Origin: an uncultured bacterium
Lineage (GTDB): Bacteria; Omnitrophota; Gorgyraeia; Zapsychrales; Aceulaceae
Length of the DNA: 64,000 nucleotides
Direction of reading: 5' to 3'
Assembly (NCBI GenBank): GCA_937930175.1
Contig: CALGLP010000012.1
Location: 1,130 to 65,129, forward strand
Shown here piece after piece: positions 5,917 to 62,292 of this stretch. The position numbers and the translations under genes are program-made. The stretch's first letter is position 1. The number at the start of each line of letters is the position of its first letter. The notes beneath the pieces were generated by a model. The model searched no databases and was not told the DNA's origin. It worked only from the letters and a program-made list of their open reading frames with translations.

Positions 5917-8900
5917 CTAACTTCCAACTTCTAATTTCTCTTCTTCTCCAAGCCCAAGCAACCCCATAAAATCTGTGACCGGAACAATGTTAATAATTAC
6001 TGGAATCAGACCTTTAATCTCTTGAAGATTCTCAAAACTCATATTTTGTGGCATCGCAAAATCGATTGCCTGACCTTGCGTTACAAGATTGATATTATCA
6101 GATTTAAAGTCGATGCCGCCGGGTCCGCTTGTAGCTTGCGAACCTTTTCCGCTCCCTGAGGGAGAGATCGTATCCGCAAGAGCGTTCCTTCTTTTTGTTG
6201 TCAAATATCGGCCAAAAAAATCTAACACCTGGTCAGAAATATCAGAAGGAAGCATTGTGTTTTTTATTACCTTGCCAACTTCTTTCGAAGCTTTCACCGC
6301 CATCTCTTCATCCCCCACAGTGCGAGAGTTGAATTTCCCATCCTCTGCAACCTTGGCCTGTCCATCGTCCTTCTTTTTAAACATATTCGATACGATCCCT
6401 TTGCCTTTCACAAACAACCCCCTGCCGCGATCCTTAAGACTTACGGTAAAATCTTGTTTTTCGATTTGATCCCATTTTCCCTCTGAAGCCAAACGCAAAG
6501 CAGTCATCTGTTCATTCGTTTTGTCAGGAAATTTATACCCCAACTTAGAAAATATTAATCCAGGAATCTCCATCTGGTCAACAGCCCGTATAATATAACC
6601 TACTTTCTTAAAGAATGTAGCCTCAAGAATTCTACCATCTGGGATTTGTGGCAACTGTCCAGGATGCAAAGCCATATAGCATAACCACTGCGCCAATTCA
6701 TGCATCCGCTTGCTTTTCCCAGCCAGGCCTTTTTCCCAAAGAGCCTTAAGTGTCAATGAAAATTCATCTGCTCCAAAATCCTCAGCTGACAACTCAGGAT
6801 TTAACACAAAATCATCCTGATCGATCGTTTCTTCTTCTAGAACAAACATCTTCTCATTGACCACGGCGTCCCGCCCCCCTGCAACAGACTCAAGGTCAGC
6901 ACGCGTCACCACCGCATCATTACGCCCCATGGAACCCAAGTCTAAAAAGACCAGCTCCAGCGAACCATCGTCACGTTTGTTGATCCAAATATTTCCGCCA
7001 TGCGGGTCCGCATGAAAGAACCCATCGACAAACATCTCTTCCATCAATTCGCCAAAGATCTTTTTCTTAAGCTGTCTGATCTCGTCCTTGGTCAACCCCA
7101 GCTCATCTTCAAGACGGCTATCTTCGTTTAACGGGACACCATGCATTTCTTCCTCAAAGATCGCCTGCCCGCGTAATGACTCAGGAAGCAGCTCATCGAG
7201 CTCCGTATAATTTTCTGCAGACCTCAAGAAAATCCGATGTGAACCGACAAAGAGCTCTTCAGTCCTGTTTGCCAAAATTTCCCTGTAACGCTTCTGATTG
7301 GCTCTTTCCACATAAAAATCGACCTCTTCCCTGAGATAAGAAGCCACCTGCTTTCCCATGTTTTTCGGGATATTCAAGCCCGACCGGCCAAGCGCATCCA
7401 AGATTTTCTCAAGAGTTTCTAGCTCCACATCAAGCACCTTGTCAATATGGGGCCGCTTAATCTTCATGACCACTCTTTTTCCGTCTGCCAGAACAACTCT
7501 ATAAACCAGCTTAATAGACGCACTGCCTAAACTGCTGCCCACATAAGCAAAATGTTTTCCAAAATCATCCCCTAACGCCAGACGCAAAAGCTGAAAAACA
7601 AACCGTTTGCCAAACGGATCTGCAGACGAAGATAGCTCCTGCAAAGCCTTCTTGACCAGAGAGTCAAGCCGGATGTCCGAATGACTGATGATCTGCGCCA
7701 GCTTGATGCCCACTAGGCCCATGGACTCAAAGAACGTCTTGATCAATTCAGGCACAGAGGATGTTCCATCGCTTTTCATCTTACCGGCCAAAGCACTGAT
7801 CACCTCAAGCGTCTTGTCCTCATCCAAATGTTGAAAAACAGTCCTGAAAATCTTCTTAAGACTTTTACGGTCGGCCATGCCTGCCGGCACACTTTTTTCA
7901 AACACAACATTTAGGAAGTGCGCCATACGCTCCGGATCACGCATGAGACCCTTCTTGCCGCCAAACAAAGATTCCATCAGGTCTTTTTTAGCGTTGGTGC
8001 CTATCGAGGAATACTTCGTCGAACCAAGCTCGGAGAAAATCTCTTTAAGATAACCCAAATCCGTGTGAGAAAAGAACTCGATCTCCATAACGGCAACGGG
8101 TTTTTCTTTTCTCAAGCCCATGATCCACAACGCAAACTCTTCCTTATCTAGGTTACTGGCTTTCTGAATGGTCTCGCGGATTTTGTTCTCAGCCGTGATC
8201 TTATTCTTAACCTTATCCTTAATCGCGTTTTCTTGTAAAAGCAACAAATGCTCTCGAACATCCTTATCTTCCTCTGGGATTCCCGCGCGCTCCATGATCT
8301 CCAGAAGAATATCATCCCGCGTAAAACTAAAGTCTGTAAAATATTGAAAAACTAGATCCATCTCCTGTTCAAAGGTCAACGACTGGCCCTCCTCCTTCTC
8401 CTTGATGCCCAGGGCAAGTTCCAGAGCTCGCAGACGAAACTTATCCCTGAAAAAATCCCGATACATAAGCGCCGAAAGCTGTTCCATCGCGCGTAATTTA
8501 TCGGATGCAGAAAGGCTAGCTTCCTGAAACGCCGATTCAGCCGCAGCGACCAAGAATTCATCCCGCACATAAGATGGCCGGGCAAAATATTCCTGCGTCT
8601 CACGCGCCAAGGCTTCCCAAGCCCTGCCTGCGCTCTGGGCTTTCTTCAAAATCATGTCCCGATATGGATATGCGGTCACAAGGTCGATCTGGGAATGAAT
8701 ATTCCCCTCCTCATTGAACTCGGCCTTGATACGTCCCCTGCTAAGACGGCCTGCCAGGGAGAGAAAAACAAAAAGCAAAGACCGGAAGGTCTGACTTAAA
8801 CGAAGAGGAGCGTATAATTCTTTCATTAATCTGAATTTCGTGCTGATGTCCATAAGCCGTTCCAACTCCTTGACCGGCAGGTCTGGCAAATGAAAAGGAC

Positions 8901-11900
8901 TTCCATACTTAGTTAAAGGAGACTCAGCAAACACGCTTCCTCCAAGTACCGATAGAAAAGGCAATATTTTCATAGCTCCCGGAATCTTTTCCAAATGCAG
9001 GATCGAATAGATTCTCAACCAGAATTTGTTCAGCAAATAAAATGAGCCGAACAAACAAGTAAAAAGAATCGGATCAAACATAACCTTAAATCTAGCCAAC
9101 CTGTTCCTTGCTTTATGACTTAGTCTCTTGGAAAAAGAGCTGAACAGAGTATACTCTTCAATCATCTCTTTTTCTTGGTGATTCACGGCCGCATTGCTAT
9201 CCGCGATCCATGCTGATATCAAGCCTGAAGTCACTCCGTTGATCTGCTTCATAAATCTGTCTTCTATCATCAAAGGCGCAATACTGCGCACAGCCGCCTG
9301 AAGCTCTTGATTATTGGCCAATTGTTTATTACTAAAACCACTCAAAACACGATCGAGATCATAAAATCGAGTCCACTTCTTCTGCCCCCGGATCCCCAGC
9401 GCAGAAGCAAGATGCTTGTCCCACAGAACATAATAAAGAAAAAGATCCCGAAAAGCAGATGACGGCATATAGTCTTTGGCAAAGGCTACCCAATGATCAA
9501 AGTCATACTGCGGGTTATCCTGGACAAAACTAAAGATCTTGAGCAGTCGTTTACGTTCAACGCTCGAAAAATGCAGGCGGTCCGTAGAATTTGTGCCTGA
9601 AATCAACCCCGCAAGAACAGCATGAACAGGAACGTTGCCCCTCCTTCTTAACAAGTCTTGAATCCACATTGTCCACAAAGTAAAATCAGGAACACGCGGA
9701 GGAGGGCGATAAAGCTTACTTGGAAATTCTCCGATTAATATCTGATAAGGATTATCCAGATCAGCTTGAACCGAAGAAACTGAAGAATTTTCTTCTGAAT
9801 AGAACCATGTGTTTTTATTCGAGTTTTTATTATGGGGGTGTTTGTATTTTTCCTGGGGATTTTGGGATCGGATCAGAAATGAAGCATTTTGACCCAGTGA
9901 TAGGTCAAAGTTAAATTTTTTATGGATCACATAATAACTTAACGGCACCAGATATTCCGACCATGTCATGGGGGTCAGAAAATACTTCTGAGCAAATCGC
10001 CGCTTTGTCTGAAGGGGCGTAAGAGCGTTAAGATAGGTAAACAAACCTTCAAGATCTTCAGCTGACAATCCAGAAATGGCATCGTCCAGCTGATCATAAA
10101 ATGTATCCATGGAAACAAACCCTCCCAGCCCAAAAAGATACATCCACTGCCTGATCTGCTGATTAAGATGGGAGACGCCTACAATAAAATCCTCACCCAG
10201 TCCCAGTTCCAGAGCCTGCGCCACAATAAACTTATTCGCATGCTCCATAATCTCCGCTGTTGCCGCTTCCTCCAGGATGCGTTCAGTATACTGAAAAAAT
10301 AAATTACTCAGAGTAGCAGGGTCATTATACGGATCCGTGATCGTAAACTCTTGTTGTCGTTCAGGCCTCTCATTCAATGCCTTGAACAGCGATTCGCTGT
10401 ACTTTAATTTCTCAACAGGTGTTGTAAAACCAAAATGCCCTTCAATGAACCCCAAGATATTCGGATCCTTTTGCAGAAGGACATAAAATTCAAAAAAGAC
10501 CTTTCCGGGATCATTGCCCCAGCGATCAAGAGAAAAATACTCGTTTTGGTCCAGCTTACCACGGGCAAAACCTGAAAGGATCGCCCCCGCGACAGACCGA
10601 CTAACAGCGCCTCTATCCTTTGAGAAAATAAGCATAATATCCTGACGATATCTTGCGTAATTGCTAGGATTAAAGATCAAGAGATCCAAGAAGAAATTCT
10701 GGCAGGACTGACTTTCAGATATCAATTCCGGAAAATTCTTGAACGTCTCAAGCAAAGTTTCCACCAGATCATCCGTAATCAGCTCAGTCTTTGCCTGCAA
10801 TCTGTCAATAATCTGCTCAACCGCAATCACGCCAATGCTATGATACATGACTACATATTTCTGCCAACCAACCTCCTTAGCCAAAAGGATCCTGTTCAAC
10901 AAATGGATGAGTTCCCTGACACTGAACTCATCAGCCCGGGCCTTAATGACGCCTTCGAGATCAAGTAAAAAATCGCTTGTCATCCAGCCTGCGCCCTTAC
11001 GCTGAACATCATGAGGAAATCTTTCGCGTTGCATCATAATGCCCTGACGTCTGCGACCTTCCTCGTCCTGGTGGATCAGGTCAAAGCGCCAGACAGATCC
11101 CAAGAGAGGATGATCAAAAACCCGGGCAAGATCTTCCTTAGGAAGCTTTTTGATTGAATCTATCAAAAACTTCTTCTCCGCCCCATGATCCAAGCCCTGC
11201 ACCTGCACAGGCATTGATTCCACTTCCCCGAAGAATGCGCGCATAGCGACCTTGCTGTAAAACGTTTGAATGCCATCTTCTGCCCGCGTCTCTTCTGCTT
11301 TGAGCGCCTCTAAGCGCTCTGCGGCCGCTTGGCCCAATTGTTTCAATTCTCGGTTCAATCCCATGTCTTGATATATCTGTTCAAAAACCTTTTTAATCTG
11401 AGGCGCAAAGGGTGCAATTTCTTTTTCAAGCTGAGGTAAAAGATCTTCTGTTAAAGGCTTTAATATGGTGCGAACCTCATCACTGCCTCTTTCTAAATAA
11501 GAACTGTTTGAAACAACGGGTTTGCTATAAGAAATTATGTTATCAACTTCGGTTAAACCCCAAGATATTCTATCCCTGACAATCGGGACAGGTCGCCAAT
11601 CCCTGTTATTAAGCAAATATTCAAGGAACCACATCAACAAACGATTATCCACATCAAATCGTTGATCTTGGTCTGCAGTCATATCCCTACTTTCTATAAT
11701 ACTCTGCCCTATCCTTAAGGAGTGATCCTTCTTGTACCCCATCGATAAAACAAAGCCATATTCCTGACTAGAAATACTCATGGGAAATAAGCCACGATTT
11801 AGTTTCTTAGACGCCATAGCATTTCTTAATCGCCACCAATTCCTTTTTTGAGGACGACCTCTTGAGTCTGGACGATCCAATCCCTGGCGCAATATTTCAG

Positions 11901-14900
11901 ACCGCGCAATCTCCATATAGCGGGTCAAGATCTGACGCAACTCTTCATGCAAACGGGTAAACTCTTTAAGCGCCGCGGAGTCCTTATTTAAATTCTGGTA
12001 TTCACTAACCTGAAATAACAATAGAGAATAAACCCCGTAGGTTGAGGCCATCTCTAGCTCTTTGGGAGTTTTGGCATCACGGATAAGCTCAAGGAGTTGG
12101 GCCGTGGTCCTGACGTTCATAAGCCGTGCGTGATACGTGCGCACCCGTGTACGTTCAAACTGATACGCCTGACCTTCCCAGCGCGTAAATTCCAAAGAAA
12201 AACCTTCAGAGAAAGGCTGGCTGGGCGCACGGTAATGCTTGAAATAATTGGGCTTTACAGCCTTAAGTATATTCCTGATCCTCTCTCCCAACAATGGATG
12301 ATTACCAAAAAAATTCTCCTTACGACCGTCCAGGTCCATGGCTTTTCTCAGCATTTCAAACGGCCTCTGGGCCTTCCCTACGGAATAACCCGCGCCGTCC
12401 ATGATCTCCAAGGCACGGCGATCGGCATCGATCTCATGAACGTAGACATCCACCTCTCCTTGAACATAACCCACGCTCCAATCATAACGGCCCCGCTCCA
12501 TCTTTCGTTTCATCTCGTCCAGCGTTTCGGGTTTGGGCGCTTCTCCCTTGTTGACTTTATCGCGGTCCTGAGTAATATGAGATATTTCATGCGCAAGGAT
12601 AAGCGCTATATGTTCTTTAAAAAACATAAAGAATTTCTCAGGATCCCCCTGACTGCGGCTTTCCTGGATAGCGTAAAAAAACTCCCACAGAAGCCCGATA
12701 TTAAGAACAATATGATTCGAGAAAGAAACGACAAAAGCATTGGCATCGGAATAATCTGCCAGATGAAAATGAAAGCTCCCCGGATCGTAGCCGGCACTCA
12801 CAAGAAGATTGTCGAATATTTCACGTAGTTCGCTGTAAACAGTCCTAAGCTCATCATCCCCATGACTGATGAGGCGGTATTCTTCTCTCGCATATTCAAT
12901 AAAAACATCCGCCGAATGCTGACTCACGTTATAACGCGCAGTCTCAGCGCGACGCTTCCATGTTTTAAGGGCGCTTTGGACATCTCCTTCGCCGCCCATG
13001 ACCTGAAAAACCGTATCCACCGGCGTTTCCCCGGATCTGTCCGCCGCATGAAGAAGGGTATCAAAAAACAGGGCCGCAAACAGCGAGGGGTCCATCCTGA
13101 CTGACAGAACATATTCGTTGATCCCGAAATATCCAGAACCACTTTCATAATTCATCATATACTTGGACGACCACTTGTCTTCTTCTCTCGGGACTACGCC
13201 GATCACAAGCCCGCCTTTGTCACCGGCCGCCTTGATCTGGCGGTGAAAAATCTCTTGATCTGCTGGAGAAAGCCGCTGATACCACTCTCCCAGAAGGGAC
13301 TGCCATTGATCCCGCGTCACACCACTATCGATCAAGTGGTGATCAATGGTGATGATTGTGCCGTCAAGCTCAAGCTGAACATTCCCCGTGCGACCAAGGG
13401 TCTCTCCCCGATAACGATCGACCTTTTTTGCTTCAAAATCCCTAGAATACCGCATGGCCTCAAATGTCGGCAGGCTTTGCCAGGACGTATTCTGCGCCTG
13501 ATCAGGTTCCCGCGCCTTCACGGGCGTGGAATTTCCTGTCTCAAGCGCTATTGGCGCTGATTGCTGTTCAAAGATTTCATTGCTGGAACTGGCTCTCGTC
13601 TCTATAGATTGATCAGTGACCGGAATATCCGACGACGCTACCCGCGGATTTTGGAAAAAGGGTGCCTCTGTTGATGTGCTTGTCCATTCTGGCGCTCTAG
13701 CTTGAACGGAGATTTCGTAGACTGTTTTCTGAGCTCCAGATTTTCTTATATAATTAATAAAAATATGACTTGGCTCTTGGCTTTCATGAAATGACGTATT
13801 TAGGTTCATGACCGTTACCCCTCCCGCAAAGTATTTCCGGGGGATGTTCTTTTTGGTGTAAGGATCATACTCCACCTTCATCATATTGCAGACGCCTTTT
13901 TTAAAGGTTTGGAGGTATTGTTGGTAAATGATTTGAACAGTATCTGGTGAAGAGTGAATAGTATCTAGAGAAGAATTATTCTGAGTTTGTGAAGGGTATC
14001 TGGTATCTAGTATCCGGTGCTTTTCTTCGCCATTTTCTAACGACTCTTCATTGCTTTTTTGGCTAGATACTAGATACTTTTCACTATTCACGACTTCTAG
14101 TCCTTTAACCTTTCTCTTATCCGCATACACCTTATTCAGTATTGAGTTCTTGAGATTCGTCTTATACCAGTAGCTTAAGATAATGCTGTTGTAGATCTGC
14201 CTTAGCTGGGCAAAGTTCTTGCCTTCATTGACTTCTTTTTCCAGGACAGGGATGAAGACCTCACGCACAATACTAGAAGAGATATCAGAAGATGGAGAAT
14301 GGACAATGGAAGATGGAAAAGTCTTAGAATCTAGGGAATCAGGACTTTTATTCGCTGTTGTCTTGTCGTTGTTTTTTCCATCTTCTATCTTCTCCCTTCT
14401 ATCTTCTTTACTTTTCTCTCTTGCTAAATAATCACTTTCCAGCATCACTTTTAATCGCGATTCAACGACAAAGGCCTTATCCTCTTGAACGTAGACTTCA
14501 GCCTTATCGGGCATGATCCAGACCTTGTTAAAGGTGTCGACAGGAACGTTCGTTGTCCCGAATTTCTCATAGGATTGCTTGTAAATCTTTTGCCAGAATT
14601 CTTTACCAAGATCACTATCAGGATTGGTTAAAGAGGCAGTTATTTGCTTTAAGAGATAGTCTTGGGCAAGCATATCAATACCCATCTCGGTAGTCCCAAG
14701 CTCTGCTGGAACGATGCGGTCTTTTTCATAGGGAGAAAGGTTGACCCAGAGATCATTCTCTGGAAGAGTAAGACTTGCCAGGAAGTAGCGGATAAGCTTT
14801 TCGCTTTCGCTCTTTAACTCATCCCCTTGAAGCCCGGAATCACCAGAATCGACAATAAAGTCGAACTTCAGGGGATTGTCAGGGTAGACACGTATTCCAC

Positions 14901-15081
14901 GAACCAGGGTAGGTGTGAAAGCCGGGCTTAAGGGGATGAGGGTATTACTAATAGCTGGTGCCAGGGTTTGAGACAAGGCTTCTTGAGGGGCGACACTCAT
15001 CAGCCCAAAAGAGAGTAAAAGACATAAAACAACCACCTTGTATAAAATAGAATTCTTATAAGTTCTTATATCATTTATCAT
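5917..15081 (-). CDS. Giant secreted multidomain protein A (3054 aa): signal peptide, family-specific N-domain, M48-type Zn-peptidase domain, UbiB/ABC1-type kinase domain, conserved C-terminal motif
   Basis: Single 9165-nt ORF. The N-terminus is hydrophobic (ILYKVVVLCLLLSFGLMSVA). The first roughly 420 aa are paralogous to the N-termini of the ORFs at 36386-42052 and 56961-62225 (shared FDFIVDSGD, YFLASLT, WVNLSPYEKDRI, VDTFNKVWIMP, LKVMLE, LEKEVNEGK, CNMMKVEYDPY). An M48 signature is present (ILAHEISHITQ ... EIDADRRALEIMDGAGY). UbiB kinase motifs are present (GIKLAQIISHSD..., VVMKIKRP, FHADPHGGNIW). The C-terminus GGIDF...IPVIINIVPVTDFMGLLGLGEEEKLEVGS is shared with the other giant ORFs. Confidence 0.8.
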   Translation of the reverse strand: MINDIRTYKNSILYKVVVLCLLLSFGLMSVAPQEALSQTLAPAISNTLIPLSPAFTPTLVRGIRVYPDNPLKFDFIVDSGDSGLQGDELKSESEKLIRYFLASLTLPENDLWVNLSPYEKDRIVPAELGTTEMGIDMLAQDYLLKQITASLTNPDSDLGKEFWQKIYKQSYEKFGTTNVPVDTFNKVWIMPDKAEVYVQEDKAFVVESRLKVMLESDYLAREKSKEDRREKIEDGKNNDKTTANKSPDSLDSKTFPSSIVHSPSSDISSSIVREVFIPVLEKEVNEGKNFAQLRQIYNSIILSYWYKTNLKNSILNKVYADKRKVKGLEVVNSEKYLVSSQKSNEESLENGEEKHRILDTRYPSQTQNNSSLDTIHSSPDTVQIIYQQYLQTFKKGVCNMMKVEYDPYTKKNIPRKYFAGGVTVMNLNTSFHESQEPSHIFINYIRKSGAQKTVYEISVQARAPEWTSTSTEAPFFQNPRVASSDIPVTDQSIETRASSSNEIFEQQSAPIALETGNSTPVKAREPDQAQNTSWQSLPTFEAMRYSRDFEAKKVDRYRGETLGRTGNVQLELDGTIITIDHHLIDSGVTRDQWQSLLGEWYQRLSPADQEIFHRQIKAAGDKGGLVIGVVPREEDKWSSKYMMNYESGSGYFGINEYVLSVRMDPSLFAALFFDTLLHAADRSGETPVDTVFQVMGGEGDVQSALKTWKRRAETARYNVSQHSADVFIEYAREEYRLISHGDDELRTVYSELREIFDNLLVSAGYDPGSFHFHLADYSDANAFVVSFSNHIVLNIGLLWEFFYAIQESRSQGDPEKFFMFFKEHIALILAHEISHITQDRDKVNKGEAPKPETLDEMKRKMERGRYDWSVGYVQGEVDVYVHEIDADRRALEIMDGAGYSVGKAQRPFEMLRKAMDLDGRKENFFGNHPLLGERIRNILKAVKPNYFKHYRAPSQPFSEGFSLEFTRWEGQAYQFERTRVRTYHARLMNVRTTAQLLELIRDAKTPKELEMASTYGVYSLLLFQVSEYQNLNKDSAALKEFTRLHEELRQILTRYMEIARSEILRQGLDRPDSRGRPQKRNWWRLRNAMASKKLNRGLFPMSISSQEYGFVLSMGYKKDHSLRIGQSIIESRDMTADQDQRFDVDNRLLMWFLEYLLNNRDWRPVPIVRDRISWGLTEVDNIISYSKPVVSNSSYLERGSDEVRTILKPLTEDLLPQLEKEIAPFAPQIKKVFEQIYQDMGLNRELKQLGQAAAERLEALKAEETRAEDGIQTFYSKVAMRAFFGEVESMPVQVQGLDHGAEKKFLIDSIKKLPKEDLARVFDHPLLGSVWRFDLIHQDEEGRRRQGIMMQRERFPHDVQRKGAGWMTSDFLLDLEGVIKARADEFSVRELIHLLNRILLAKEVGWQKYVVMYHSIGVIAVEQIIDRLQAKTELITDDLVETLLETFKNFPELISESQSCQNFFLDLLIFNPSNYARYRQDIMLIFSKDRGAVSRSVAGAILSGFARGKLDQNEYFSLDRWGNDPGKVFFEFYVLLQKDPNILGFIEGHFGFTTPVEKLKYSESLFKALNERPERQQEFTITDPYNDPATLSNLFFQYTERILEEAATAEIMEHANKFIVAQALELGLGEDFIVGVSHLNQQIRQWMYLFGLGGFVSMDTFYDQLDDAISGLSAEDLEGLFTYLNALTPLQTKRRFAQKYFLTPMTWSEYLVPLSYYVIHKKFNFDLSLGQNASFLIRSQNPQEKYKHPHNKNSNKNTWFYSEENSSVSSVQADLDNPYQILIGEFPSKLYRPPPRVPDFTLWTMWIQDLLRRRGNVPVHAVLAGLISGTNSTDRLHFSSVERKRLLKIFSFVQDNPQYDFDHWVAFAKDYMPSSAFRDLFLYYVLWDKHLASALGIRGQKKWTRFYDLDRVLSGFSNKQLANNQELQAAVRSIAPLMIEDRFMKQINGVTSGLISAWIADSNAAVNHQEKEMIEEYTLFSSFSKRLSHKARNRLARFKVMFDPILFTCLFGSFYLLNKFWLRIYSILHLEKIPGAMKILPFLSVLGGSVFAESPLTKYGSPFHLPDLPVKELERLMDISTKFRLMKELYAPLRLSQTFRSLLFVFLSLAGRLSRGRIKAEFNEEGNIHSQIDLVTAYPYRDMILKKAQSAGRAWEALARETQEYFARPSYVRDEFLVAAAESAFQEASLSASDKLRAMEQLSALMYRDFFRDKFRLRALELALGIKEKEEGQSLTFEQEMDLVFQYFTDFSFTRDDILLEIMERAGIPEEDKDVREHLLLLQENAIKDKVKNKITAENKIRETIQKASNLDKEEFALWIMGLRKEKPVAVMEIEFFSHTDLGYLKEIFSELGSTKYSSIGTNAKKDLMESLFGGKKGLMRDPERMAHFLNVVFEKSVPAGMADRKSLKKIFRTVFQHLDEDKTLEVISALAGKMKSDGTSSVPELIKTFFESMGLVGIKLAQIISHSDIRLDSLVKKALQELSSSADPFGKRFVFQLLRLALGDDFGKHFAYVGSSLGSASIKLVYRVVLADGKRVVMKIKRPHIDKVLDVELETLEKILDALGRSGLNIPKNMGKQVASYLREEVDFYVERANQKRYREILANRTEELFVGSHRIFLRSAENYTELDELLPESLRGQAIFEEEMHGVPLNEDSRLEDELGLTKDEIRQLKKKIFGELMEEMFVDGFFHADPHGGNIWINKRDDGSLELVFLDLGSMGRNDAVVTRADLESVAGGRDAVVNEKMFVLEEETIDQDDFVLNPELSAEDFGADEFSLTLKALWEKGLAGKSKRMHELAQWLCYMALHPGQLPQIPDGRILEATFFKKVGYIIRAVDQMEIPGLIFSKLGYKFPDKTNEQMTALRLASEGKWDQIEKQDFTVSLKDRGRGLFVKGKGIVSNMFKKKDDGQAKVAEDGKFNSRTVGDEEMAVKASKEVGKVIKNTMLPSDISDQVLDFFGRYLTTKRRNALADTISPSGSGKGSQATSGPGGIDFKSDNINLVTQGQAIDFAMPQNMSFENLQEIKGLIPVIINIVPVTDFMGLLGLGEEEKLEVGS
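13949..14093. repeat. In-frame palindromic insertion (hairpin-forming) within giant gene A, insertion 2
   Basis: The arms gtgaatagtatctag ... ctagatacttttcactattcac form an imperfect inverted repeat. The segment encodes a low-complexity stretch (NSEESLENGEEKH...SSLDTIHSSPD) that is absent from paralog B at the equivalent position. Confidence 0.45.
14273..14425. repeat. In-frame palindromic insertion within giant gene A, insertion 1 (tagaag-type)
   Basis: The arms agaagatggagaatggacaatggaagatggaaaag ... cttttttccatcttctatcttctcccttctatcttc form an inverted repeat. It encodes EDRREKIEDGKNN...SSIVHSPSSDISSS between the conserved LKVMLESDYLA and IVREVFIP blocks, and paralog B has only a short linker there. 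Confidence 0.5.
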
Positions 15082-15825: not shown

Positions 15826-16479
15826 TTATTTAGGGTAGCCGACGGGTTGAGTCAGGATAATCCGCTGATGGGACGCAAGTTTCATGGCCTTGACCAAAGC
15901 CTCTTTATCAATCCAGCCTAGCACGACCGTGGCCAAGCCTTCTGCCGCGCAGAAAAGATAAACATTTTGACTAATATAACCTGTATCAACAGCCGCATAT
16001 AACGCCTTGGCATCTTCAGCGCCATCCATGCGTTTTAAATCTGCCACAAAGATAAGGCTTAAAGGCGCATCTTTCACAAAGCCTTGAATACCGACAATAG
16101 GGCGAATATCTTGCGCCAAGATCGGATCAAGTGCCTGCGTTTTTGCATTAAAAAGGTAGAGGCCACTTTTCATCGCCACATAAATATCAATCTCTTGCGC
16201 ATTTTTTGCTGAAGGCGCTGTGCGCATACCTGTTTCTGGACGGTTGATGCCATTGGCTGCCCAAAGAAGATTAGAAATCGTCTGCAGAGACAATTCATCT
16301 GTTTTAAATGCGCGACTTGATTTTCGTTTCTCTAACGCCATCATCAATGTTGTAGACGATGAAAACTTTGGAGCTAAAAGTTCAATCGCCGCCAACTCCT
16401 TCTTTTCCTGAGCCTGCGCGAATAACGAAAATTGACACAAAAGAAAAGTAAAAATAACAAAGACTTTTAATGGTCTCAT
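15826..16479 (-). CDS. Nitroreductase-family / SagB-type dehydrogenase-like protein with N-terminal signal peptide
   Basis: 217 aa with an N-terminal hydrophobic leader (VFVIFTFLLCQFSLFAQAQ). The remainder resembles the nitroreductase fold (...LSLQTISNLLWAANGINR...). Its start overlaps the upstream TPR gene stop by 4 nt. Confidence 0.5.
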   Translation of the reverse strand: MRPLKVFVIFTFLLCQFSLFAQAQEKKELAAIELLAPKFSSSTTLMMALEKRKSSRAFKTDELSLQTISNLLWAANGINRPETGMRTAPSAKNAQEIDIYVAMKSGLYLFNAKTQALDPILAQDIRPIVGIQGFVKDAPLSLIFVADLKRMDGAEDAKALYAAVDTGYISQNVYLFCAAEGLATVVLGWIDKEALVKAMKLASHQRIILTQPVGYPK

Positions 16480-19065: not shown

Positions 19066-19073
19066 AAAACTAT

Positions 19074-22501: not shown

Positions 22502-22505
22502 AAGC

Positions 22506-23396: not shown

Positions 23397-23418
23397 ACAA
23401 CACGCTTAAGCAAAAAAA

Positions 23419-36385: not shown

Positions 36386-39300
36386 TCACCCCTTGACCAC
36401 CTCAGCCACCGCAGGCTCCTGTGGTATGTCAAATCCAAGTTGCAACGGCAGATTAATGGGCGTCATCTCAAGGATGATAGGCCTCAAGATATCAATATAA
36501 ATGCTCTCCATATCCTGAAATGGCACCGCGAGCGGCACGCCCTGATCATCGGTCTTGATATTTAACTCTTTATACAATTGAGTCAAGTCCACGCCACCGG
36601 TAGGAGCCGAAGAAACTGAAAAATCAAAAAGTCCTAAAGAAGTAACAAGATCCCACATAAACTGAGAATCTTCAGAGCTTTCGTTCTTAACCATTCCTGC
36701 AAAAATCCTATAATCTTTATCAACGGAAAGGATTAACGCAAACCTTATATTAGTAAACTGTTGCGTATATGCTCTTAAATTATTCCCAAAAGTTTTATGA
36801 CTCTCCGTTGATATATTGCCTTTGACAATAACAGGAACAATAATCTTTGCCTTATTCCCGTCCCTGGCACCTTGGCTGATCTTCCGAAGCTTAGCTTCAA
36901 CCTCCTTTTGCCAAGCCCGCATCTGCCAGTCATCTTTAAAAACTTCCGGATCAATGGTAATGGCTTCTTCAAATAAATCACCATGTTCTTCTTTAAGAGT
37001 TTCTGCAAAACGTGAAGGATCAGGATGCAGAACACAAGCGCTCTGCAAAGAATTTGGATCCTTTACAAGCAAATCATATACTTGCTGAGCAGCCTGTTTT
37101 CTGGCTTTAGTCTTTTTATCATCAACAGCTGTTTCGCGAAGATTGATCAAGGAACGGATAAATTCAGCCGGTACTCCGCCTAAGGCCATAAACTCGCTGG
37201 CCAGAACAACAAAGCGGTCAAAAGAAAACTCCTTTGTGCTATAACGACTATCTTTCTTGTTTAAATCCCTATAAAAATTAACAGTAAAAGAATTTTCCGA
37301 AGGCTTCGCTAAAGCCCAGGACAAGAGATCTTGAATAACTGTCCTTTTGTCACGCAGCAAATCACCATGCATCTCTTTGTCAACGTCCATCATTTTATCC
37401 TTAAGCTCATTAAGCCTGGGGATCAGTTCATCCGTTAGACCTAAGCCTTGTAGCTGCGCTTTGGCAAATCTGACAAAATCGTCCTCGCCAATACCGGAAT
37501 GAGTGCTTTCTGCCAAATCCCGCACCAAGGCTCTGGCCGCAAAGGCATCCAGACGAAGAAGAGCATCCATAAAGTATAAAAAGTTGTCTTCAGTGAATCG
37601 ATACCGATCAACCCCCCCGTTATTAGGACTAAAAATAATATCCTTTGATGTCAGGGCATCTTCAGGCGGCAGATCTCTCGAAAGCACTTCCTTGGCATAT
37701 CTTGCTAAAATCGGCAAAAGACGCTTATCCGTCTTGATCAGGCTGATCAACCTAGTATCAACTATGAACTTCTTATACCGACCGTCTTCATCCTTATTCC
37801 CGCGAAGAATGAGATCCAGATTGGGCCACGTTACCAAAGCATCACCCTGCTCATTAATCGACTTACGCGCATTTGTAGCTGATGAACTGGCCGTGAACTT
37901 GACAACCCAGTCACCACGCATGCTAGATGGCTTAGTCAACGTAACCTTGCCTTCAGAATACTGATAGGTGATGGTGAAAATGTCAGTACAACTCCCGCGA
38001 AAGCTAGGGCCTTCAAAAGTACCCCCTAATTTTGTTATAATAATTGGATTTCCTATATACCTGCCAATCTTATTTAAAACCTGTGTATTGATTACATCGG
38101 GAGTTTCAAACGATCCCGGAAGCTTAAAACTCTCAGCTTTTTCTTTAATACTCGAACTAACAACAGTCGTAACCTTCCAATCCCCTGATTTCTGCGCTGT
38201 AATCGTTCTCTGAGCGTTTTTTAAACCTCGCTGATAAACGACGACCTTGCCCACTAAAATATCGGTCTTTATTGTTTTCCAGCCATTATAGGCATACTCT
38301 TCTGAAATCAGGCGCGCTACCTTTTCCTCGGATAGAACTCTCGAATAGGTCTTAAGCCCAGAGCTGATCTTTTCTGGCGCTGAAACGGCAACAGCAGGAG
38401 CAAATCCATTTTTTGCTAATTCTTTGAGTATGACTTGCCTGATCCATGACGGTTCATCCAGGCCGCGATACTCTGGCGATGACTCAAGAGCGCGATTGAC
38501 GTTTTCGGCGATCTTAAAAGCCATGTCAAAACTGCCTAGAGATTCTTTCGCCTTGCCGTAGAGGTCCTGAAAAGTCACCTCGCGGCCAAAAAGATCTGAA
38601 AGGATCTTCAAGGCATCCTCACCGTTATACGCTTTGGTCATTGACTCAGAAGAAAATCGGTTGACAGAAAATTTTCTTGATCTGACAAGCGACAGGATGC
38701 CTAAGATCGACCAGATTTGACCATCAGCCTCAGGGTCTAAATCCTTGCCCATCAACACCAGAAGCTCATCTCGTGTAAGGGAAAAACCAGGACGAATAAA
38801 TTTAGGATTTGAATCCTTAGAAGCACGATTACGCAAACTCAATCCCAGAGAATCCCTAATCCACTCCTCATAAGACTCTTTATATACTTTTCCATCCGGT
38901 CTAATGTAGACATGCAGGGATTTTAATTCTTGCATCTTGCCTGTGCGATCAACATAGAACCAGGGAGCTGCTTGCTCGCGAAAACGAAACTCGCCAGGAT
39001 AATCACTTTCGATCACAACATTCTCGCCAATTTCAACCCCGCTAAGGTCGACACGGCCACGGATCACGCCAGAAAAAGAGGTTTCACGAAAAGTGATAGA
39101 ACTCTTACTCCTTATGAAATCTATGCTAGGAATCGACACCCTTGGACCCCTTTGCTTCCTTGCTTTTTCTTTTTTCTTATCCGCATTGGTTGAGGTGCCA
39201 AATTCTTCAGATGAATTATCCAAGGTGGTGGTCAACAAATACCACTCCTCATGCTCCCGGAACACAAGATAGGTCAATTGACCGTCCTGAACACCGATCC

Positions 39301-41917
39301 GTGTTTGATCGCTAGAGATCCGGATTTGCGCAGGAAGAATCTTAAATTTTCTCGAAAGAAATACGACCACGGCGAAAACATCTTTTCCCGATAACTCAGA
39401 AACCTCAAATGGTCCCGAAATCACCTGCGCTTTCGGCTCTGTATCGCGCAGCACAGAGGGAACGCTCGGAGACGCCTTGGCCTGCTGAAACGGAATCGGA
39501 GCTCCAAAAGAATCCTTATAAGAAACGACAACAAATCGTGGACCTGCCATCTCCACACCCATAACGGAACTATCTTGGAACGTGATCCATAATCCAGGGA
39601 TCTCGACAGGAAGAGGTTTATTTTCAGAGAAAATTTCCAAGACTTTATAAGGCGAAAGACTCATAGGAAAAATACCCTTAGGTCTTTTATTTACTGCCTC
39701 TGCAATAATCGCCGCCACTTTTTCAGGCGTGAGAGTAAGCGATAAATAAGGAATCTTTGCCGACTCTGTCGGCAGAACAGGCGTTGTTTGATTCGTGGGA
39801 CTTGGTGACTGGGTAAAATCAACATCCTGATTATTCTTGTCGACAACGCCTGAGATCTTCCAACTATTCTTAGAAAAATCCCTTGTAATCAAAATCTTCA
39901 AATCACCATACATCAAGGTAATGGAAACAATTTCTTCCAGCTTGTGAGCACGAGGATCATACTCTTCCAAGAAGAAATTTCCATGAGGAACGTTACGCAC
40001 CACAAACGTCTTTTCAGGGTTTCCATACCCTAAAGCTTCATTTATCTGCGCGGTAATCTCTTCAACAGAAAGCTTGGCGTCTAAATGCGGGATCTTGATA
40101 TTGGAAGATGTCTTGACGACTACTGCTGGACGGGCTGGTCGCTGTGGTAAATGATTAATTTCTACAACTTTCCATTGCGTATTGTCTTCATTTAAACTTT
40201 TTACTTTAACATAACTCGATCCGCCAAAATGGATCTCAACATAAATAATGTCATCGCTGCCATCAACCTCCATCCACATGCTTTCTATTGATTTCCATTC
40301 AGCCCACTCAAGATCCCTTTGTTCACCATCTGAAAAATACACAACTACTTTATCAATCATGCGTCCAGCGTATGTCTTCCACACATCATTTAGCATGGTC
40401 TCGCCAGACCCATTAATAATTTGATTGATCGCTAAACCAGACGATATACGTTTTTTACTCTTAAACGTATACACAACCCACTGGTCGGTGAGATTCTTTA
40501 ACTCTTTATAAGATCCACGCGGGGCAACGGCAACAACGCGGAAGTTACCGGAAATTATTTCGACTGGGCTTAGCGGCGCATTACCGGTCGTAATTTTAGC
40601 TTTTTTGCGATCAATGCTTTGATTATACTTTTTTAGAAGATACTTCCTAATTCGGTCTTGCTTCCATACTTTCGCGCCTTTCTCATCAATAAAATACCGC
40701 TTCTTTCTTTCCCATGGCGAGGTCGATCTTTGGCGAGGCTTAATCCGAGACTTTTTGTTAGACAGGACTGAGCTTATTTTAATATTGCCGCCTCCCTTGC
40801 CAACAATCGTTTCTATTTGACCAGACGTTGGAAAATTGGTCTGCGTTAAATTAATCTCAACCAATGGAATACCCCCGGAGAAATATTTTCGGGCAACATT
40901 ACGCTTGGCTTGAGCGTCGTACTCTGCACGGATCAAATTATACGCCCCTTGTTTGTAAGCAGTTAAATACGAATCATAAATCTTTTGCTTCACAGCCTTA
41001 TCCGTCAAATCAATACCGTTTATTTTGGATTTGTTGACATAGGCTTGACCTAAAAGACTATCTTTTAAATTCTTCTTAAACCATGTTCCTAAGATAAGGG
41101 CATTATAGGCCTGACGCAAGGCGGCAAAATGTTTTCCATTATTCACTTCTTTTTCAAGTTCGGGGATCACAATGTCGCGGACGATTTGGGAGGCAAGTTC
41201 TTGGCTCTTGGCTCTTGGCTCATTGGTTTTGCTATCAGCTATGAGCGATGAGCTCTGAGCTTTTTGCAGCGCGAGGTAATCCTCTTCCAGCATCACCTTT
41301 AAGGACGCCTCGGCCACAAAGGCCATGTTGCCATAGCGATACACAACCGCCTTGTCCGGCATGATCCATACCTTATTAAAAGTATCAACCGGGATCTGCG
41401 TGGTTTGATAGGTTTCATAGGCCTTTTTGTAAACCTTATCCCAAAACTTTTTTCCAAGATCGTTTTCAGGATGGATCATCGATGCGGTAAATTGTTTTAA
41501 GACATAGTCCTGCGCGAGCAAATCGCGGCCCAAATCCGTTTGTGCCAAGGCATCAGGAATGATCCGGTCTTTTTCATACGGAGAGAGATTGACCCACAAG
41601 TCTTTTTCAGGGATCGTCAGAGACGCCAAGAAATATTTGATCATCTTCTCCGATTCCTTCTTTAAAGCCTCGCCTTGAAGATTATCATCGCCATCATTCA
41701 CAATAAAATCAAACTGAAACGGGCTATCCGAGTGGACCTCAACACCTGTCATCATGGCCGGATGAAAGACTGGAGTTGGCGCAAGCAGAGTGCCAGGTGC
41801 GGGCAAGTTGAGCGCTTGAGCAAATCCAGAGGATGGCAAAATAAGATTGACAACAAAACAAACACAGACAAGGCAACGAATCGCCTTTGAGGACCAGTTT
41901 TTTCTAAATGTAAACAT
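36386..41917 (-). CDS. Giant secreted protein B (about 1843 aa from internal Met; ORF-track version 1888 aa to 42052) with family N-domain and C-terminal motif
   Basis: The internal Met at 41917 gives a good signal peptide (MFTFRKNWSSKAIRCLVCVCFVVNLILPSSGFAQA). Conserved N-domain blocks are present (FDFIVNDGDD, YFLASLT, WVNLSPYEKDRI, VDTFNKVWIMPDKA, LKVMLEEDYLA, LEKEVNNGK). The C-terminus is GGVDL...PIILEMTPINLPLQLG. No enzyme motif was recognised in the central 1400 aa. Confidence 0.7.
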   Translation of the reverse strand: MFTFRKNWSSKAIRCLVCVCFVVNLILPSSGFAQALNLPAPGTLLAPTPVFHPAMMTGVEVHSDSPFQFDFIVNDGDDNLQGEALKKESEKMIKYFLASLTIPEKDLWVNLSPYEKDRIIPDALAQTDLGRDLLAQDYVLKQFTASMIHPENDLGKKFWDKVYKKAYETYQTTQIPVDTFNKVWIMPDKAVVYRYGNMAFVAEASLKVMLEEDYLALQKAQSSSLIADSKTNEPRAKSQELASQIVRDIVIPELEKEVNNGKHFAALRQAYNALILGTWFKKNLKDSLLGQAYVNKSKINGIDLTDKAVKQKIYDSYLTAYKQGAYNLIRAEYDAQAKRNVARKYFSGGIPLVEINLTQTNFPTSGQIETIVGKGGGNIKISSVLSNKKSRIKPRQRSTSPWERKKRYFIDEKGAKVWKQDRIRKYLLKKYNQSIDRKKAKITTGNAPLSPVEIISGNFRVVAVAPRGSYKELKNLTDQWVVYTFKSKKRISSGLAINQIINGSGETMLNDVWKTYAGRMIDKVVVYFSDGEQRDLEWAEWKSIESMWMEVDGSDDIIYVEIHFGGSSYVKVKSLNEDNTQWKVVEINHLPQRPARPAVVVKTSSNIKIPHLDAKLSVEEITAQINEALGYGNPEKTFVVRNVPHGNFFLEEYDPRAHKLEEIVSITLMYGDLKILITRDFSKNSWKISGVVDKNNQDVDFTQSPSPTNQTTPVLPTESAKIPYLSLTLTPEKVAAIIAEAVNKRPKGIFPMSLSPYKVLEIFSENKPLPVEIPGLWITFQDSSVMGVEMAGPRFVVVSYKDSFGAPIPFQQAKASPSVPSVLRDTEPKAQVISGPFEVSELSGKDVFAVVVFLSRKFKILPAQIRISSDQTRIGVQDGQLTYLVFREHEEWYLLTTTLDNSSEEFGTSTNADKKKEKARKQRGPRVSIPSIDFIRSKSSITFRETSFSGVIRGRVDLSGVEIGENVVIESDYPGEFRFREQAAPWFYVDRTGKMQELKSLHVYIRPDGKVYKESYEEWIRDSLGLSLRNRASKDSNPKFIRPGFSLTRDELLVLMGKDLDPEADGQIWSILGILSLVRSRKFSVNRFSSESMTKAYNGEDALKILSDLFGREVTFQDLYGKAKESLGSFDMAFKIAENVNRALESSPEYRGLDEPSWIRQVILKELAKNGFAPAVAVSAPEKISSGLKTYSRVLSEEKVARLISEEYAYNGWKTIKTDILVGKVVVYQRGLKNAQRTITAQKSGDWKVTTVVSSSIKEKAESFKLPGSFETPDVINTQVLNKIGRYIGNPIIITKLGGTFEGPSFRGSCTDIFTITYQYSEGKVTLTKPSSMRGDWVVKFTASSSATNARKSINEQGDALVTWPNLDLILRGNKDEDGRYKKFIVDTRLISLIKTDKRLLPILARYAKEVLSRDLPPEDALTSKDIIFSPNNGGVDRYRFTEDNFLYFMDALLRLDAFAARALVRDLAESTHSGIGEDDFVRFAKAQLQGLGLTDELIPRLNELKDKMMDVDKEMHGDLLRDKRTVIQDLLSWALAKPSENSFTVNFYRDLNKKDSRYSTKEFSFDRFVVLASEFMALGGVPAEFIRSLINLRETAVDDKKTKARKQAAQQVYDLLVKDPNSLQSACVLHPDPSRFAETLKEEHGDLFEEAITIDPEVFKDDWQMRAWQKEVEAKLRKISQGARDGNKAKIIVPVIVKGNISTESHKTFGNNLRAYTQQFTNIRFALILSVDKDYRIFAGMVKNESSEDSQFMWDLVTSLGLFDFSVSSAPTGGVDLTQLYKELNIKTDDQGVPLAVPFQDMESIYIDILRPIILEMTPINLPLQLGFDIPQEPAVAEVVKG

Positions 41918-62225: not shown

Positions 62226-62290
62226 CTCTTTCTCTCTATCTACTCTATCTACTCTACCTACTCTATTTACTTTCTACTTTTTCTTTTCCC
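62098..62290. repeat. Large imperfect inverted repeat (gagtagaaagtaga units) between giant genes D and C
   Basis: The left arm (62104-62140) is gagtagaaagtagagagtagaaagtagagagtagaaaa. The right arm (62226-62275) is tctctctatctactctatctactctacctactctatttactttctac, complementary to the left. The 85-nt loop contains TTGCGA-17-TTATAAT on the plus strand. Confidence 0.55.
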
Positions 62291-62292
62291 TT

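What the first reader, a model, noticed from the sequence alone, without database searches (positions are those of the whole stretch)
5917..6100. Conserved C-terminal motif as candidate sorting/secretion signal; near-identical 3' ends of genes A and D
The last roughly 30 residues of A (IPVIINIVPVTDFMGLLGLGEEEKLEVGS) and D (LVPIIINVTPVTDFMGLLGLGEKEKLEVGS) are almost identical. The last roughly 60 nt are about 85-90% identical at nucleotide level (ttctaacttccaacttctaa(t/c)ttctct...ctccaagcc), and divergence begins immediately upstream. C and B carry degenerate versions (YPVIINVAPVTNLPLLLGVF; RPIILEMTPINLPLQLGF). A short, extreme-C-terminal, hydrophobic-Pro/Val/Ile motif preceded by GG[IV]DF, on proteins that also have Sec signals, is what a second-step export or cell-surface sorting signal would look like. 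The nucleotide-level identity suggests purifying selection or gene conversion between paralog 3' ends. Coordinates given are the A copy; the D copy is 62293-62480.
Basis: seen in the sequence. Interest (0 to 1): 0.7.

Follow-up and report, generated by a model that had tools for sequence, protein, structure and literature searches.

The report
Omnitrophota exoprotein C-terminal tag module
The shared tail of these genes is a conserved, undescribed C-terminal peptide of about 60 residues that, with a matching N-terminal domain, brackets thousands of different exported Omnitrophota proteins and probably serves as an address or docking tag, though its function is untested.

Summary
Genes A and D share 54/60 identical final bases. 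All four large minus-strand genes (A-D) end in the same module: GG[IV]D[FL], about 39 residues, then P[VI]II(N/E)x xP, a short LLG stretch and an acidic tail.

A profile of it finds 5,904 protein clusters. In all 150 listed hits it lies at the extreme C-terminus, and every informative source name is Omnitrophota. It is almost always paired with a Sec-type signal peptide and a roughly 350-residue N-terminal domain that has no detected structural relative. The cargo between these "bookends" is unrelated between paralogs and carries cytoplasm-type enzyme domains.

The module matches no Pfam, NCBIfam or PDB entry and is not predicted to fold on its own. It lacks the transmembrane-helix-plus-basic-tail layout of sortase or exosortase signals. 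No cognate machinery is encoded nearby.

The A/D nucleotide identity reflects purifying selection on recent paralogs (dN/dS about 0.04). Synonymous divergence equals that of the N-domain, so recent gene conversion is not needed.

Best reading: an extended recognition or docking peptide that works with the N-domain after Sec export. The function is inferred, not shown.

The parts
5920..6120 (-). Gene A C-terminal module (residues 2988-3054): GGIDF, 39-residue spacer, PVIINIVPV, TDFMGLLGLG, acidic tail EEEKLEVGS.
   Evidence: scores 83.9 bits against the module HMM.
5920..5976 (-). Last 19 codons of A (TDFMGLLGLGEEEKLEVGS), the stretch nearly identical to D's 62296-62352.
   Evidence: 54/60 nt identical including the stop. 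Five synonymous and one non-synonymous difference: pS 0.40, dN 0.023.
62296..62607 (-). Gene D C-terminal module. GGIDF lies at 62593-62607 and PIIINVTPV at 62353-62379, separated by an atypical insertion of about 80 residues. The tail is TDFMGLLGLGEKEKLEVGS.
   Evidence: (spacing 119 residues versus the usual 38-40).
56964..57176 (-). Gene C C-terminal module: GGVDF ... GLYPVIINVAPVTNLPLLLGV, tail FEEEAEGLELSKL.
   Evidence: 88.1 bits against the module HMM. The protein is identical to P0251.
36389..36598 (-). Gene B C-terminal module, the most divergent copy: GGVDL ... ILRPIILEMTPINLPLQLGF, tail DIPQEPAVAEVVKG.
   Evidence: 70.7 bits.
13819..15081 (-). Gene A signal peptide plus conserved N-terminal 'bookend' domain, ending PRKYFAGG at residue 421.
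40871..41917 (-). Gene B signal peptide plus N-terminal bookend domain, ending RKYFSGG at residue 349.
60918..62225 (-). Gene C signal peptide plus N-terminal bookend domain, ending RKYFSGG at residue 436. The annotated start may lie too far upstream.
6121..13818 (-). Gene A cargo, about 2,560 residues, including a peptidase M48 motif and an ABC1/UbiB-type kinase domain. It has no similarity to the cargo of B, C or D.
62293..64000 (-). Gene D, truncated at its 5' end by the window edge. A public contig (L001) that is 100% identical over the 8,011-bp overlap shows at least 1,461 residues. These include the end of the same N-domain (QLRQIYNSIILSYWYK ... PRKYFAGGV).

Best explanation
The shared tail is the C-terminal half of a two-part architecture found only in Omnitrophota.

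Shown:
- Family members consist of a cleavable Sec-type signal peptide, a roughly 350-residue conserved N-domain ending PRKYFSGG, 150 to more than 2,700 residues of freely exchanged cargo, and this C-module.
- The C-module is a core of about 57 residues punctuated by Pro and Gly: GGIDLNP..L.LQIKRDG.G.PLP...QP.....I.GF.PVIINI.PV.NLPLLLG.
- An acidic linker of about 10-60 residues follows, often ending [EQ]-[LIV]-S-x-L-N at the free carboxyl end.

Inferred:
- After Sec export the module stays extended.
- A partner then binds it through its two short Pro-flanked hydrophobic strands and its free C-terminus.
- This routes, attaches or docks the cargo in the envelope, at the cell surface, or towards a host cell, in concert with the N-domain.

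The partner is unidentified. It could be a dedicated envelope machine or the N-domain itself.
For: Position and abundance:
- A module profile finds 5,904 clusters (2,750 at E<=1e-10).
- In all 150 listed hits the match lies at the extreme C-terminus of proteins of 72-3,159 residues.
- The same holds in 80/80 loci from species genomes, 9-85 residues from the stop.
- Apparent stand-alone small ORFs are frameshift fragments of large genes.

Conserved geometry:
- The GGID-to-PVIIN spacing is 38-40 residues in about 95 of 105 sequences.
- In the 119 sequences with the modal 39-residue spacing, G1, G2, G37, P40, I42 and P47 are conserved at 99-100%.

Selection:
- For A versus D over the last 19 codons, dN is 0.023 and dS 0.57.

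Export:
- A, B, C and all complete relatives have signal peptides with a positive n-region, a hydrophobic core and an A-x-A site, and no lipobox Cys.
- 105 of 123 cargos have no strong transmembrane segment.

Not an autonomous fold:
- AlphaFold2 with 118-sequence alignments gives pLDDT 46-70 within a full-length protein.
- The module alone gives mean pLDDT 67 and pTM 0.24, with almost no secondary structure.

Pairing with the N-domain:
- 30/33 C-module ORFs with a closed 5' end carry the N-domain.
- 50/64 closed N-domain ORFs end in the module by HMM, and at least 4 more carry visibly degenerate copies.
- C-module identity rises with N-domain identity (42, 54, 70, 76, 94% across bins), while only 8 of 277 pairs with 70-90% N-domain identity share cargo.

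Cargo and taxonomy:
- Cargo is unrelated among A-D.
- Cargo carries cytoplasm-type domains: ABC1 kinase, M48 peptidase, SAM methyltransferase, UDPGP, ROK, response-regulator receiver, HEAT and WD40.
- Informative source names are almost all Omnitrophota. Two fragments are labelled as archaeal bins and one as a vent metagenome. Generic MAG labels make up the rest.
Against: - There is no localisation, processing or genetic evidence of any kind.
- No cognate sortase, secretin or barrel gene lies in the window.
- No neighbour family recurs specifically across 160 loci plus the window. The top clusters are generic histidine kinases, a TPR membrane protein and ABC ATPases.
- The module lacks every architectural hallmark of validated sorting signals.
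- Cytoplasm-type, nucleotide-dependent cargo is odd for periplasmic or extracellular proteins.
- Signal-peptide and transmembrane calls rest on inspection and a crude hydropathy scan, not a trained predictor.
- About 10% of N-domain proteins appear to lack the module.
Confidence: 0.45

Rival explanations
1. The module is not an export signal. It is the ligand of the N-terminal domain. The C-terminal peptide docks onto the N-domain of the same chain, closing the cargo into a loop. Alternatively it docks onto the next chain, giving head-to-tail chains or a surface coat, in the manner of donor-strand or dockerin-cohesin assembly.
For: - The two bookends co-occur almost without exception.
- They co-diverge while the cargo between them is swapped.
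- The same rank order (A,D) > C > B holds for both ends within this window.
- The peptide does not fold alone.
- It shows a modest pLDDT rise (58-70) around PVIIN in the full-length model.
- The N-domain ends in FSGG and the module starts with GGID.
Against: - The AlphaFold2 full-length model did not place the module confidently (pLDDT 46-70), and no PAE or contacts were available.
- Co-divergence can equally arise from shared descent or from matching a common external receptor.
- No cargo-less family member, with the N-domain fused directly to the module, was found; the minimum cargo is 153 residues.
Confidence: 0.25
2. The hydrophobic stretch F-x-PVIINITPVTNLPLLLGL is a C-terminal membrane anchor, acting as a stop-transfer or tail-anchor helix.
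For: The segment is about 20 residues long and hydrophobic. The Kyte-Doolittle 19-residue mean exceeds 1.6 in 106 of 277 C-termini.
Against: - The segment contains three (near-)invariant prolines plus conserved Asn and Thr.
- The tail after it is net acidic in 162 of 253 cases, not basic.
- AlphaFold2 predicts coil, with only a 4-5 residue helix.
- The conserved upstream GGIDL half, at fixed spacing, would be unexplained.
Confidence: 0.07
3. The module is a removable pro-peptide or a tag read by a periplasmic C-terminal-processing protease (Prc/Ctp-like). It would control maturation or turnover rather than location.
For: - The position is at the extreme C-terminus, with a conserved final motif ([LIV]-S-x-L-N in 39 of 270 tails, and related endings in many others).
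- The module is intrinsically unstructured.
- [DNES]-x-A-M motifs are enriched just upstream of the module and just after the N-domain in one clade. These could be processing sites.
Against: - A 57-residue core with fixed geometry is far more than known C-terminal protease tags require.
- The x-A-M motif is absent from A-D in this window.
- No protease gene is linked.
Confidence: 0.08
4. The module is a type I (ABC/RTX-like) C-terminal secretion signal.
For: - It is C-terminal and about 60 residues long.
- It has an acidic stretch followed by hydrophobic terminal residues and a GG-x-D element.
- The cargo is cytoplasm-type.
- Conserved N- and C-terminal regions flanking variable effectors recall MARTX toxins (own knowledge).
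Against: - Every complete member has a cleavable-type Sec signal peptide, which type I substrates lack.
- There is a single GGxD, not nonapeptide repeats.
- No RTX or haemolysin-type Pfam or NCBIfam hit was found.
- No linked ABC, membrane-fusion or TolC genes were found. The ABC gene at 1920-3713 is MsbA-like and lies beside lpxB.
Confidence: 0.05
5. The A/D identity is only a trace of recent gene conversion or duplication and has no function of its own.
For: A and D are the closest paralog pair at both ends.
Against: - The module is conserved across thousands of clusters in the phylum.
- dN/dS is about 0.04.
- Synonymous divergence in the tail (pS 0.40) is no lower than in the N-domain blocks (0.37-0.50), so no recent conversion tract is visible.
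- Identity ends at the stop codon.
Confidence: 0.01

Closest known systems
Type IX secretion C-terminal domain (CTD) of Bacteroidota
   Same: A conserved C-terminal element of under 100 residues on Sec-exported proteins with very diverse cargo. It occurs many times per genome, is restricted to one phylum, and is not linked to its machinery in the genome.
   Different: The T9SS CTD is a folded beta-sandwich with its own NCBIfam models. This module gives no NCBIfam or Pfam hit and is predicted unstructured. It is always accompanied by a large conserved N-domain, which T9SS cargo lacks.
Tripartite sorting signals (LPXTG/sortase, PEP-CTERM/exosortase, GlyGly-CTERM/rhombosortase, MYXO-CTERM)
   Same: A short signature motif at the extreme C-terminus of signal-peptide-bearing proteins, in many paralogs per genome.
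   Different: Those signals are a motif, then a transmembrane helix, then a basic cluster, about 25-35 residues in all. Here there is a 57-residue core, a proline-broken hydrophobic stretch and an acidic tail. No model matches.
MARTX toxins and polymorphic toxin systems
   Same: Conserved N- and C-terminal regions bracket interchangeable enzyme cargo. The cargo is of cytoplasmic type, suggesting action inside another cell.
   Different: MARTX toxins use type I secretion, have no Sec signal and have glycine-rich repeat blocks. No sequence or fold relation was detected. The similarity is one of logic only.
TPS domain of two-partner secretion exoproteins (relevant to the N-domain partner)
   Same: A signal peptide followed by a conserved N-terminal domain of about 300 residues on very large, variable exoproteins.
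Dockerin-cohesin assembly (cellulosomes)
   Same: A C-terminal module of about 60-70 residues on many different enzymes that could plug into a common receptor. Asp/Asn/Gly-rich segments are present (GGIDLN, RDGNG).
   Different: There is no duplicated calcium-binding F-hand and no PF00404 hit. A receptor has not been shown.

Membership tests
LPXTG / PEP-CTERM-type tripartite sorting signals | A signature motif followed by a transmembrane helix of about 20 residues | tested here: not met
   The hydrophobic stretch carries three (near-)invariant Pro plus Asn and Thr. AlphaFold2 predicts coil.
LPXTG / PEP-CTERM-type tripartite sorting signals | A cluster of basic residues at the extreme C-terminus | tested here: not met
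   The tail is net negative in 162 of 253 cases, with mean charge -1.8. A and D end EE(E/K)KLEVGS.
LPXTG / PEP-CTERM-type tripartite sorting signals | A match to curated NCBIfam sorting-domain models | tested here: not met
   No NCBIfam hit at E<=10 for seven modules, and none on whole proteins A-D covering the module.
LPXTG / PEP-CTERM-type tripartite sorting signals | A cognate sortase, exosortase or rhombosortase in the genome | not testable with these tools
   None lies in the 64-kb window, and none recurs in 160 loci plus the window. No whole genome was available for profiling.
Type IX secretion CTD | A folded beta-sandwich domain of about 70-100 residues at the C-terminus | tested here: not met
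   Mean pLDDT 67, pTM 0.24 and no strands of three or more residues, with a 118-sequence alignment.
Type IX secretion CTD | A match to Por_Secre_tail-type models | tested here: not met
   No Pfam or NCBIfam hits.
Type I secretion (RTX-like) signal | No N-terminal Sec signal peptide | tested here: not met
   Sec-type signal peptides are present in A, B, C and in complete relatives. They were judged by inspection.
Type I secretion (RTX-like) signal | Tandem GGxGxDxUx repeats upstream of the signal | tested here: not met
   There is one GG[IV]D per protein and no RTX Pfam hit.
Outer-membrane protein beta-signal | A terminal aromatic residue (usually Phe or Trp) closing an amphipathic strand | tested here: not met
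   Terminal residues are mostly N, G, S, L and V. F, Y and W together account for 12 of about 260 tails.
Autotransporter (type V) C-terminal barrel | A C-terminal beta-barrel domain of about 250-300 residues | tested here: not met
   The conserved C-terminal region is only about 60-80 residues, and the cargo upstream is unrelated between members.
Dockerin | A duplicated calcium-binding F-hand and a PF00404 match | tested here: not met
   No Pfam match at E<=10.
Omnitrophota 'bookend' family (defined here) | A C-module at the extreme C-terminus, with GGID-to-PVIIN spacing of about 39 residues | tested here: met
   A, B and C meet it fully. D has the module with an 80-residue insertion.
Omnitrophota 'bookend' family (defined here) | A signal peptide plus a conserved N-domain ending PRKYFSGG | tested here: met
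   A, B and C score 568-584 bits against the N-domain HMM. For D only the end of the domain is visible, on L001.

The most novel reading that the evidence does not exclude
The signal peptide, N-domain and C-peptide together form a previously undescribed two-part protein delivery or display system specific to Omnitrophota. The N-domain would act as carrier, anchor or translocator. The C-peptide would act as its signal or latch. Between them, cytoplasm-type enzyme cassettes (kinases, methyltransferases, sugar-nucleotide enzymes) are swapped by recombination. These cassettes would be delivered from ultra-small epibiotic cells to the surface or interior of host or prey cells.
Probability: 0.2. Interest if true: 0.9.

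Novelty: new variant of a known kind. Interest (0 to 1): 0.72.

Why it matters
Omnitrophota are uncultured, ultra-small and suspected predators or parasites. How their many large, unannotated proteins reach their targets is unknown. This work defines a sequence signature that marks at least 5,900 protein clusters as one architectural class: a signal peptide, an N-domain with no detected structural relative, exchangeable cargo and a C-terminal peptide.

The class has no entry in Pfam, NCBIfam or the PDB, and no description in the Omnitrophota papers I could search.

If the tag is a sorting or docking signal, it provides three things:
- a ready-made catalogue of the phylum's exported or effector proteome;
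- a handle for finding the cognate machinery by phylogenetic profiling;
- a testable explanation for why nucleotide-dependent enzymes carry export signals.

Even if only the architecture holds, it is a clear example of cassette exchange between co-evolving end modules.

Tried and rejected
- A single-sequence search with A's last 80 residues found only one 45-residue fragment. A profile was needed.
A tighter alignment, A4, worked.
- The afdb50 fold library was unavailable.
- Recent gene conversion of the 3' end is rejected, because synonymous divergence there equals that in the N-domain blocks.
- 'Stand-alone small C-module proteins' are rejected. The two examined (P0134, P0193) are pieces of frameshifted large genes in long-read contigs.
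- I searched for a conserved neighbour gene as candidate machinery. Only generic families recur.
- I looked for a cargo-less member, with the N-domain fused directly to the module, to test whether the two ends form one unit. None was found; the minimum cargo is 153 residues.
- Literature searches for the motif strings and for Omnitrophota sorting signals found nothing relevant.
Full report
**1. Checking the observation**

The window holds four large minus-strand genes:
- A, 5917-15081, 3,054 residues;
- B, 36386-41917, 1,843 residues from the first ATG;
- C, 56961-62225, 1,754 residues;
- D, 62293 to beyond 64000, truncated at its 5' end.

The last 60 bases of A and D match at 54 positions, with a chance probability of about 6e-26. 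The preceding 30 bases match at only 16/30, although the peptide is conserved (PVIINIVPV versus PIIINVTPV). Identity stops at the stop codon.

In the six-frame translation, P[IV]I[IL][NE][IVM].P[VI] and GG[IV]D[FL] each occur exactly four times, always paired at the 3' end of A-D. The first pattern occurs in none of 50 shuffles. HMM scans find no further copy in the window.

Two corrections apply. The unit starts at GGIDF, just outside the stated range for A. D carries an insertion of about 80 residues between GGIDF and PIIINV.

**2. What the module is**

I built a profile from 11 copies and searched 1.84 billion representative proteins. It finds 5,904 clusters at E<=1e-3 and 2,750 at E<=1e-10. 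In all 150 listed hits the match lies at the extreme C-terminus of proteins of 72-3,159 residues.

The core consensus is (V/P)GGIDLNPALLDLQIKRDGNGVPLPLPQQPIENMxIxGFxPVIINITPVTNLPLLLG. Several Gly and Pro positions are invariant. The GGID-to-PVIIN spacing is 38-40 residues in about 95 of 105 sequences.

A variable tail follows, with a median of 24 residues after PVIINxxP. It is net acidic in 162 of 253 cases. It ends [EQ][LIV]SxLN in 39 of 270 distinct tails, and many others have related endings such as LELSKL or QLSSIR. The endings KLEVGS in A and D and LELSKL in C are variants of this terminal element.

A scan of one genome per GTDB species with the strict pattern PVIIN[VI][TA]P[VI] gave 181 confirmed sites. 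All 80 retrieved lie 9-85 residues before the stop of a long ORF. They come from Omnitrophota genomes, or from MAGs with generic labels, often several per genome.

Two small 'stand-alone' module ORFs on long contigs turned out to be fragments of frameshifted large genes.

**3. It is half of a pair**

A, B and C share a Sec-type signal peptide and a domain of about 350-400 residues ending PRKYF(S/A)GG. This N-domain alone has 1,415 database relatives. The named ones are almost all Omnitrophica or Omnitrophota.

The public contig L001 is identical to the window over 8,011 bp. It shows that D is at least 1,461 residues long and carries the same N-domain end.

The pairing holds in both directions:
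- In species genomes, 30 of 33 module-bearing ORFs with a closed 5' end start with the N-domain.
- In metagenome loci fetched with the N-domain, 50 of 64 stop-closed ORFs end in the module by HMM.
- At least four more of those ORFs show degenerate copies by eye, and several others are split ORFs.

Between the two ends lies cargo of 153 to more than 2,700 residues, median 1,121. BLASTP among A-D finds similarity only in the two end modules.

Across 111 full-length members, C-module identity rises with N-domain identity: 42, 43, 54, 70, 76 and 94% across successive bins. Only 8 of 277 pairs with 70-90% identical N-domains have homologous cargo. The ends are therefore inherited together and the cargo is replaced.

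**4. Nature of the parts**

The cargo is varied and of cytoplasmic type:
- A carries peptidase M48 and ABC1 kinase domains.
- Relatives carry SAM methyltransferase, UDPGP, ROK, starch synthase, response-regulator receiver, HEAT and WD40 domains.
- By a crude hydropathy scan, 105 of 123 cargos have no strong transmembrane segment.

AlphaFold2 on the smallest complete member (P0062, 564 residues, 118-sequence alignment) models the N-domain at pLDDT above 90. It is a mixed alpha/beta fold. The module reaches only 46-70 and has no strands.

The module of gene A alone, with 118 homologues, gives mean pLDDT 67 and pTM 0.24. I read it as an extended peptide that needs a partner.

**5. Nucleotide identity of A and D**

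Over the last 19 codons there are five synonymous changes and one non-synonymous change (pS 0.40, dS 0.57, dN 0.023). Two fully conserved N-domain blocks of A and D show pS 0.50 and 0.37, with dN 0.

The tail is therefore no more similar at silent sites than the other end of the gene. A and D are simply the closest paralog pair, and both ends are under strong purifying selection. At this modest silent divergence the completely unrelated cargo must have been exchanged rather than diverged in place. This last step is an inference.

**6. Context**

The neighbours are housekeeping genes:
- EF-Ts and ribosomal protein S2;
- an MsbA-like ABC transporter and LpxB;
- a Bat/MoxR operon;
- an AsmA-family protein and a PilZ protein;
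- pyruvate:ferredoxin oxidoreductase, identified from its translation but not scanned against Pfam;
- NrdD;
- rubrerythrin.

LpxB and AsmA indicate a diderm envelope. Clustering all flanking ORFs of 160 related loci plus the window shows no specifically recurrent neighbour.

**7. Mechanism**

Shown:
- the module's position at the extreme C-terminus, its conservation and the selection acting on it;
- its pairing with a signal peptide and the N-domain;
- the lack of an autonomous fold;
- cargo exchange.

Inferred: after Sec export, a partner binds the extended peptide through its Pro-flanked hydrophobic strands and its free C-terminus. Together with the N-domain, this determines where the cargo ends up (confidence 0.45).

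The main rival is that the partner is the N-domain itself, giving cis closure or head-to-tail assembly (0.25). Membrane anchor, protease tag or pro-peptide, and type I signal are less likely, for the reasons listed under rival explanations. A functionless conversion relic is excluded.

The cytoplasm-type cargo fits delivery into another cell. That suits the proposed predatory or epibiotic lifestyle of the phylum (PMC10066038; 10.1101/2023.11.21.568195). This remains speculation.

**8. Comparison with known systems**

In logic, the module resembles the type IX CTD: a phylum-restricted C-terminal tag on diverse Sec-exported cargo, unlinked to its machinery. The whole architecture resembles MARTX and polymorphic toxins, which have conserved ends and exchangeable enzyme cargo.

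It fails every tested defining feature of the following families (see the membership table):
- LPXTG and PEP-CTERM-type signals;
- the T9SS CTD;
- type I signals;
- outer-membrane-protein beta-signals;
- autotransporter barrels;
- dockerins.

The Omnitrophota papers I could read describe giant proteins, their transmembrane and signal-peptide content and nearby type II/IV secretion genes. They do not describe this N-domain and C-module pair. Full-text searches for the motif strings found nothing relevant.

**9. Verdict**

The feature is real and strongly conserved, and it is not described in the Pfam, NCBIfam and PDB libraries or the literature I could search. The gene-conversion idea is unnecessary.

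I rate it a new variant of a known kind (C-terminal recognition tags on exported proteins). There is a substantial chance that the paired architecture represents something more novel.

Noticed in passing
   Followed up: partly
window 14257-14436 (gene A) and L001:117-240 (gene D, outside the window): A low-complexity insert inside A's N-domain (EDRREKIEDGKNNDKT...SPSS) is 89.5% identical in nucleotides over 124 nt to an insert at a different position of D's N-domain. C has related inserts. This suggests in-frame mobile or converted linker segments.
   Followed up: partly
window 62095-62292 (minus strand), D-C intergenic region and start of ORF C: Purine-rich 9-nt repeats (TAGAGTAGA, 5 copies, 62226-62271) pair with complementary pyrimidine repeats (14-nt unit, 2.6 copies, 62105-62141). 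They form a long hairpin enclosing C's annotated ATG at 62225 (MFE -59.7 kcal/mol, z -5.6). This may be a terminator for D or a translational control element. It also casts doubt on C's annotated start.
   Followed up: partly
related proteins (for example P0252, P0328, P0350, P0341), not A-D: [DNES]-x-A-M motifs are strongly enriched at both cargo boundaries. There are about 0.8 per protein in the 80 residues after the N-domain, against 0.095 per 80 residues inside cargo. There are about 0.35 per protein in the 40 residues before GGID, against 0.048 per 40 residues inside cargo. They often occur in tandem. They may be processing or binding sites flanking the cargo in one clade.
   Followed up: partly
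window 62380-62592 (minus strand): Gene D has an insertion of about 80 residues between the GGIDF half and the PIIINV half of the module. This shows that the two halves tolerate separation, which fits linear motifs better than one compact domain.
   Followed up: no
window 6121-13818 (gene A cargo): A signal-peptide-bearing protein carries an ABC1/UbiB-type kinase domain (residues 2483-2722) and a peptidase M48 motif (751-838). These are ATP- and metal-dependent domains normally found inside the cell or on the inner membrane.
   Followed up: no
window 24488-27787 (minus strand): A 1,099-residue ORF with no Pfam match and no signal peptide sits between a polysaccharide deacetylase gene and the MoxR/Bat operon.
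   Followed up: no
window 16476-24417 (minus strand): A complete Bat-type aerotolerance-like operon is present: MoxR AAA ATPase, DUF58, BatA and VWA proteins, TPR proteins and BatD.
   Followed up: no
L162:1-8348 and L163:1-8312: Long-read metagenome contigs break large family genes into many small co-directional ORFs. This creates spurious 'stand-alone' C-module proteins in protein databases.
   Followed up: yes
model ma3c14db4f4e0 (P0062): The best Foldseek PDB hits of the N-domain model are not significant (E 0.08 or higher, TM-score 0.28 or lower). They include ClyA-family pore-forming toxin components (NheA, MakA, MakB) and colicin Ia. This is only a lead for a membrane-active role.
   Followed up: no
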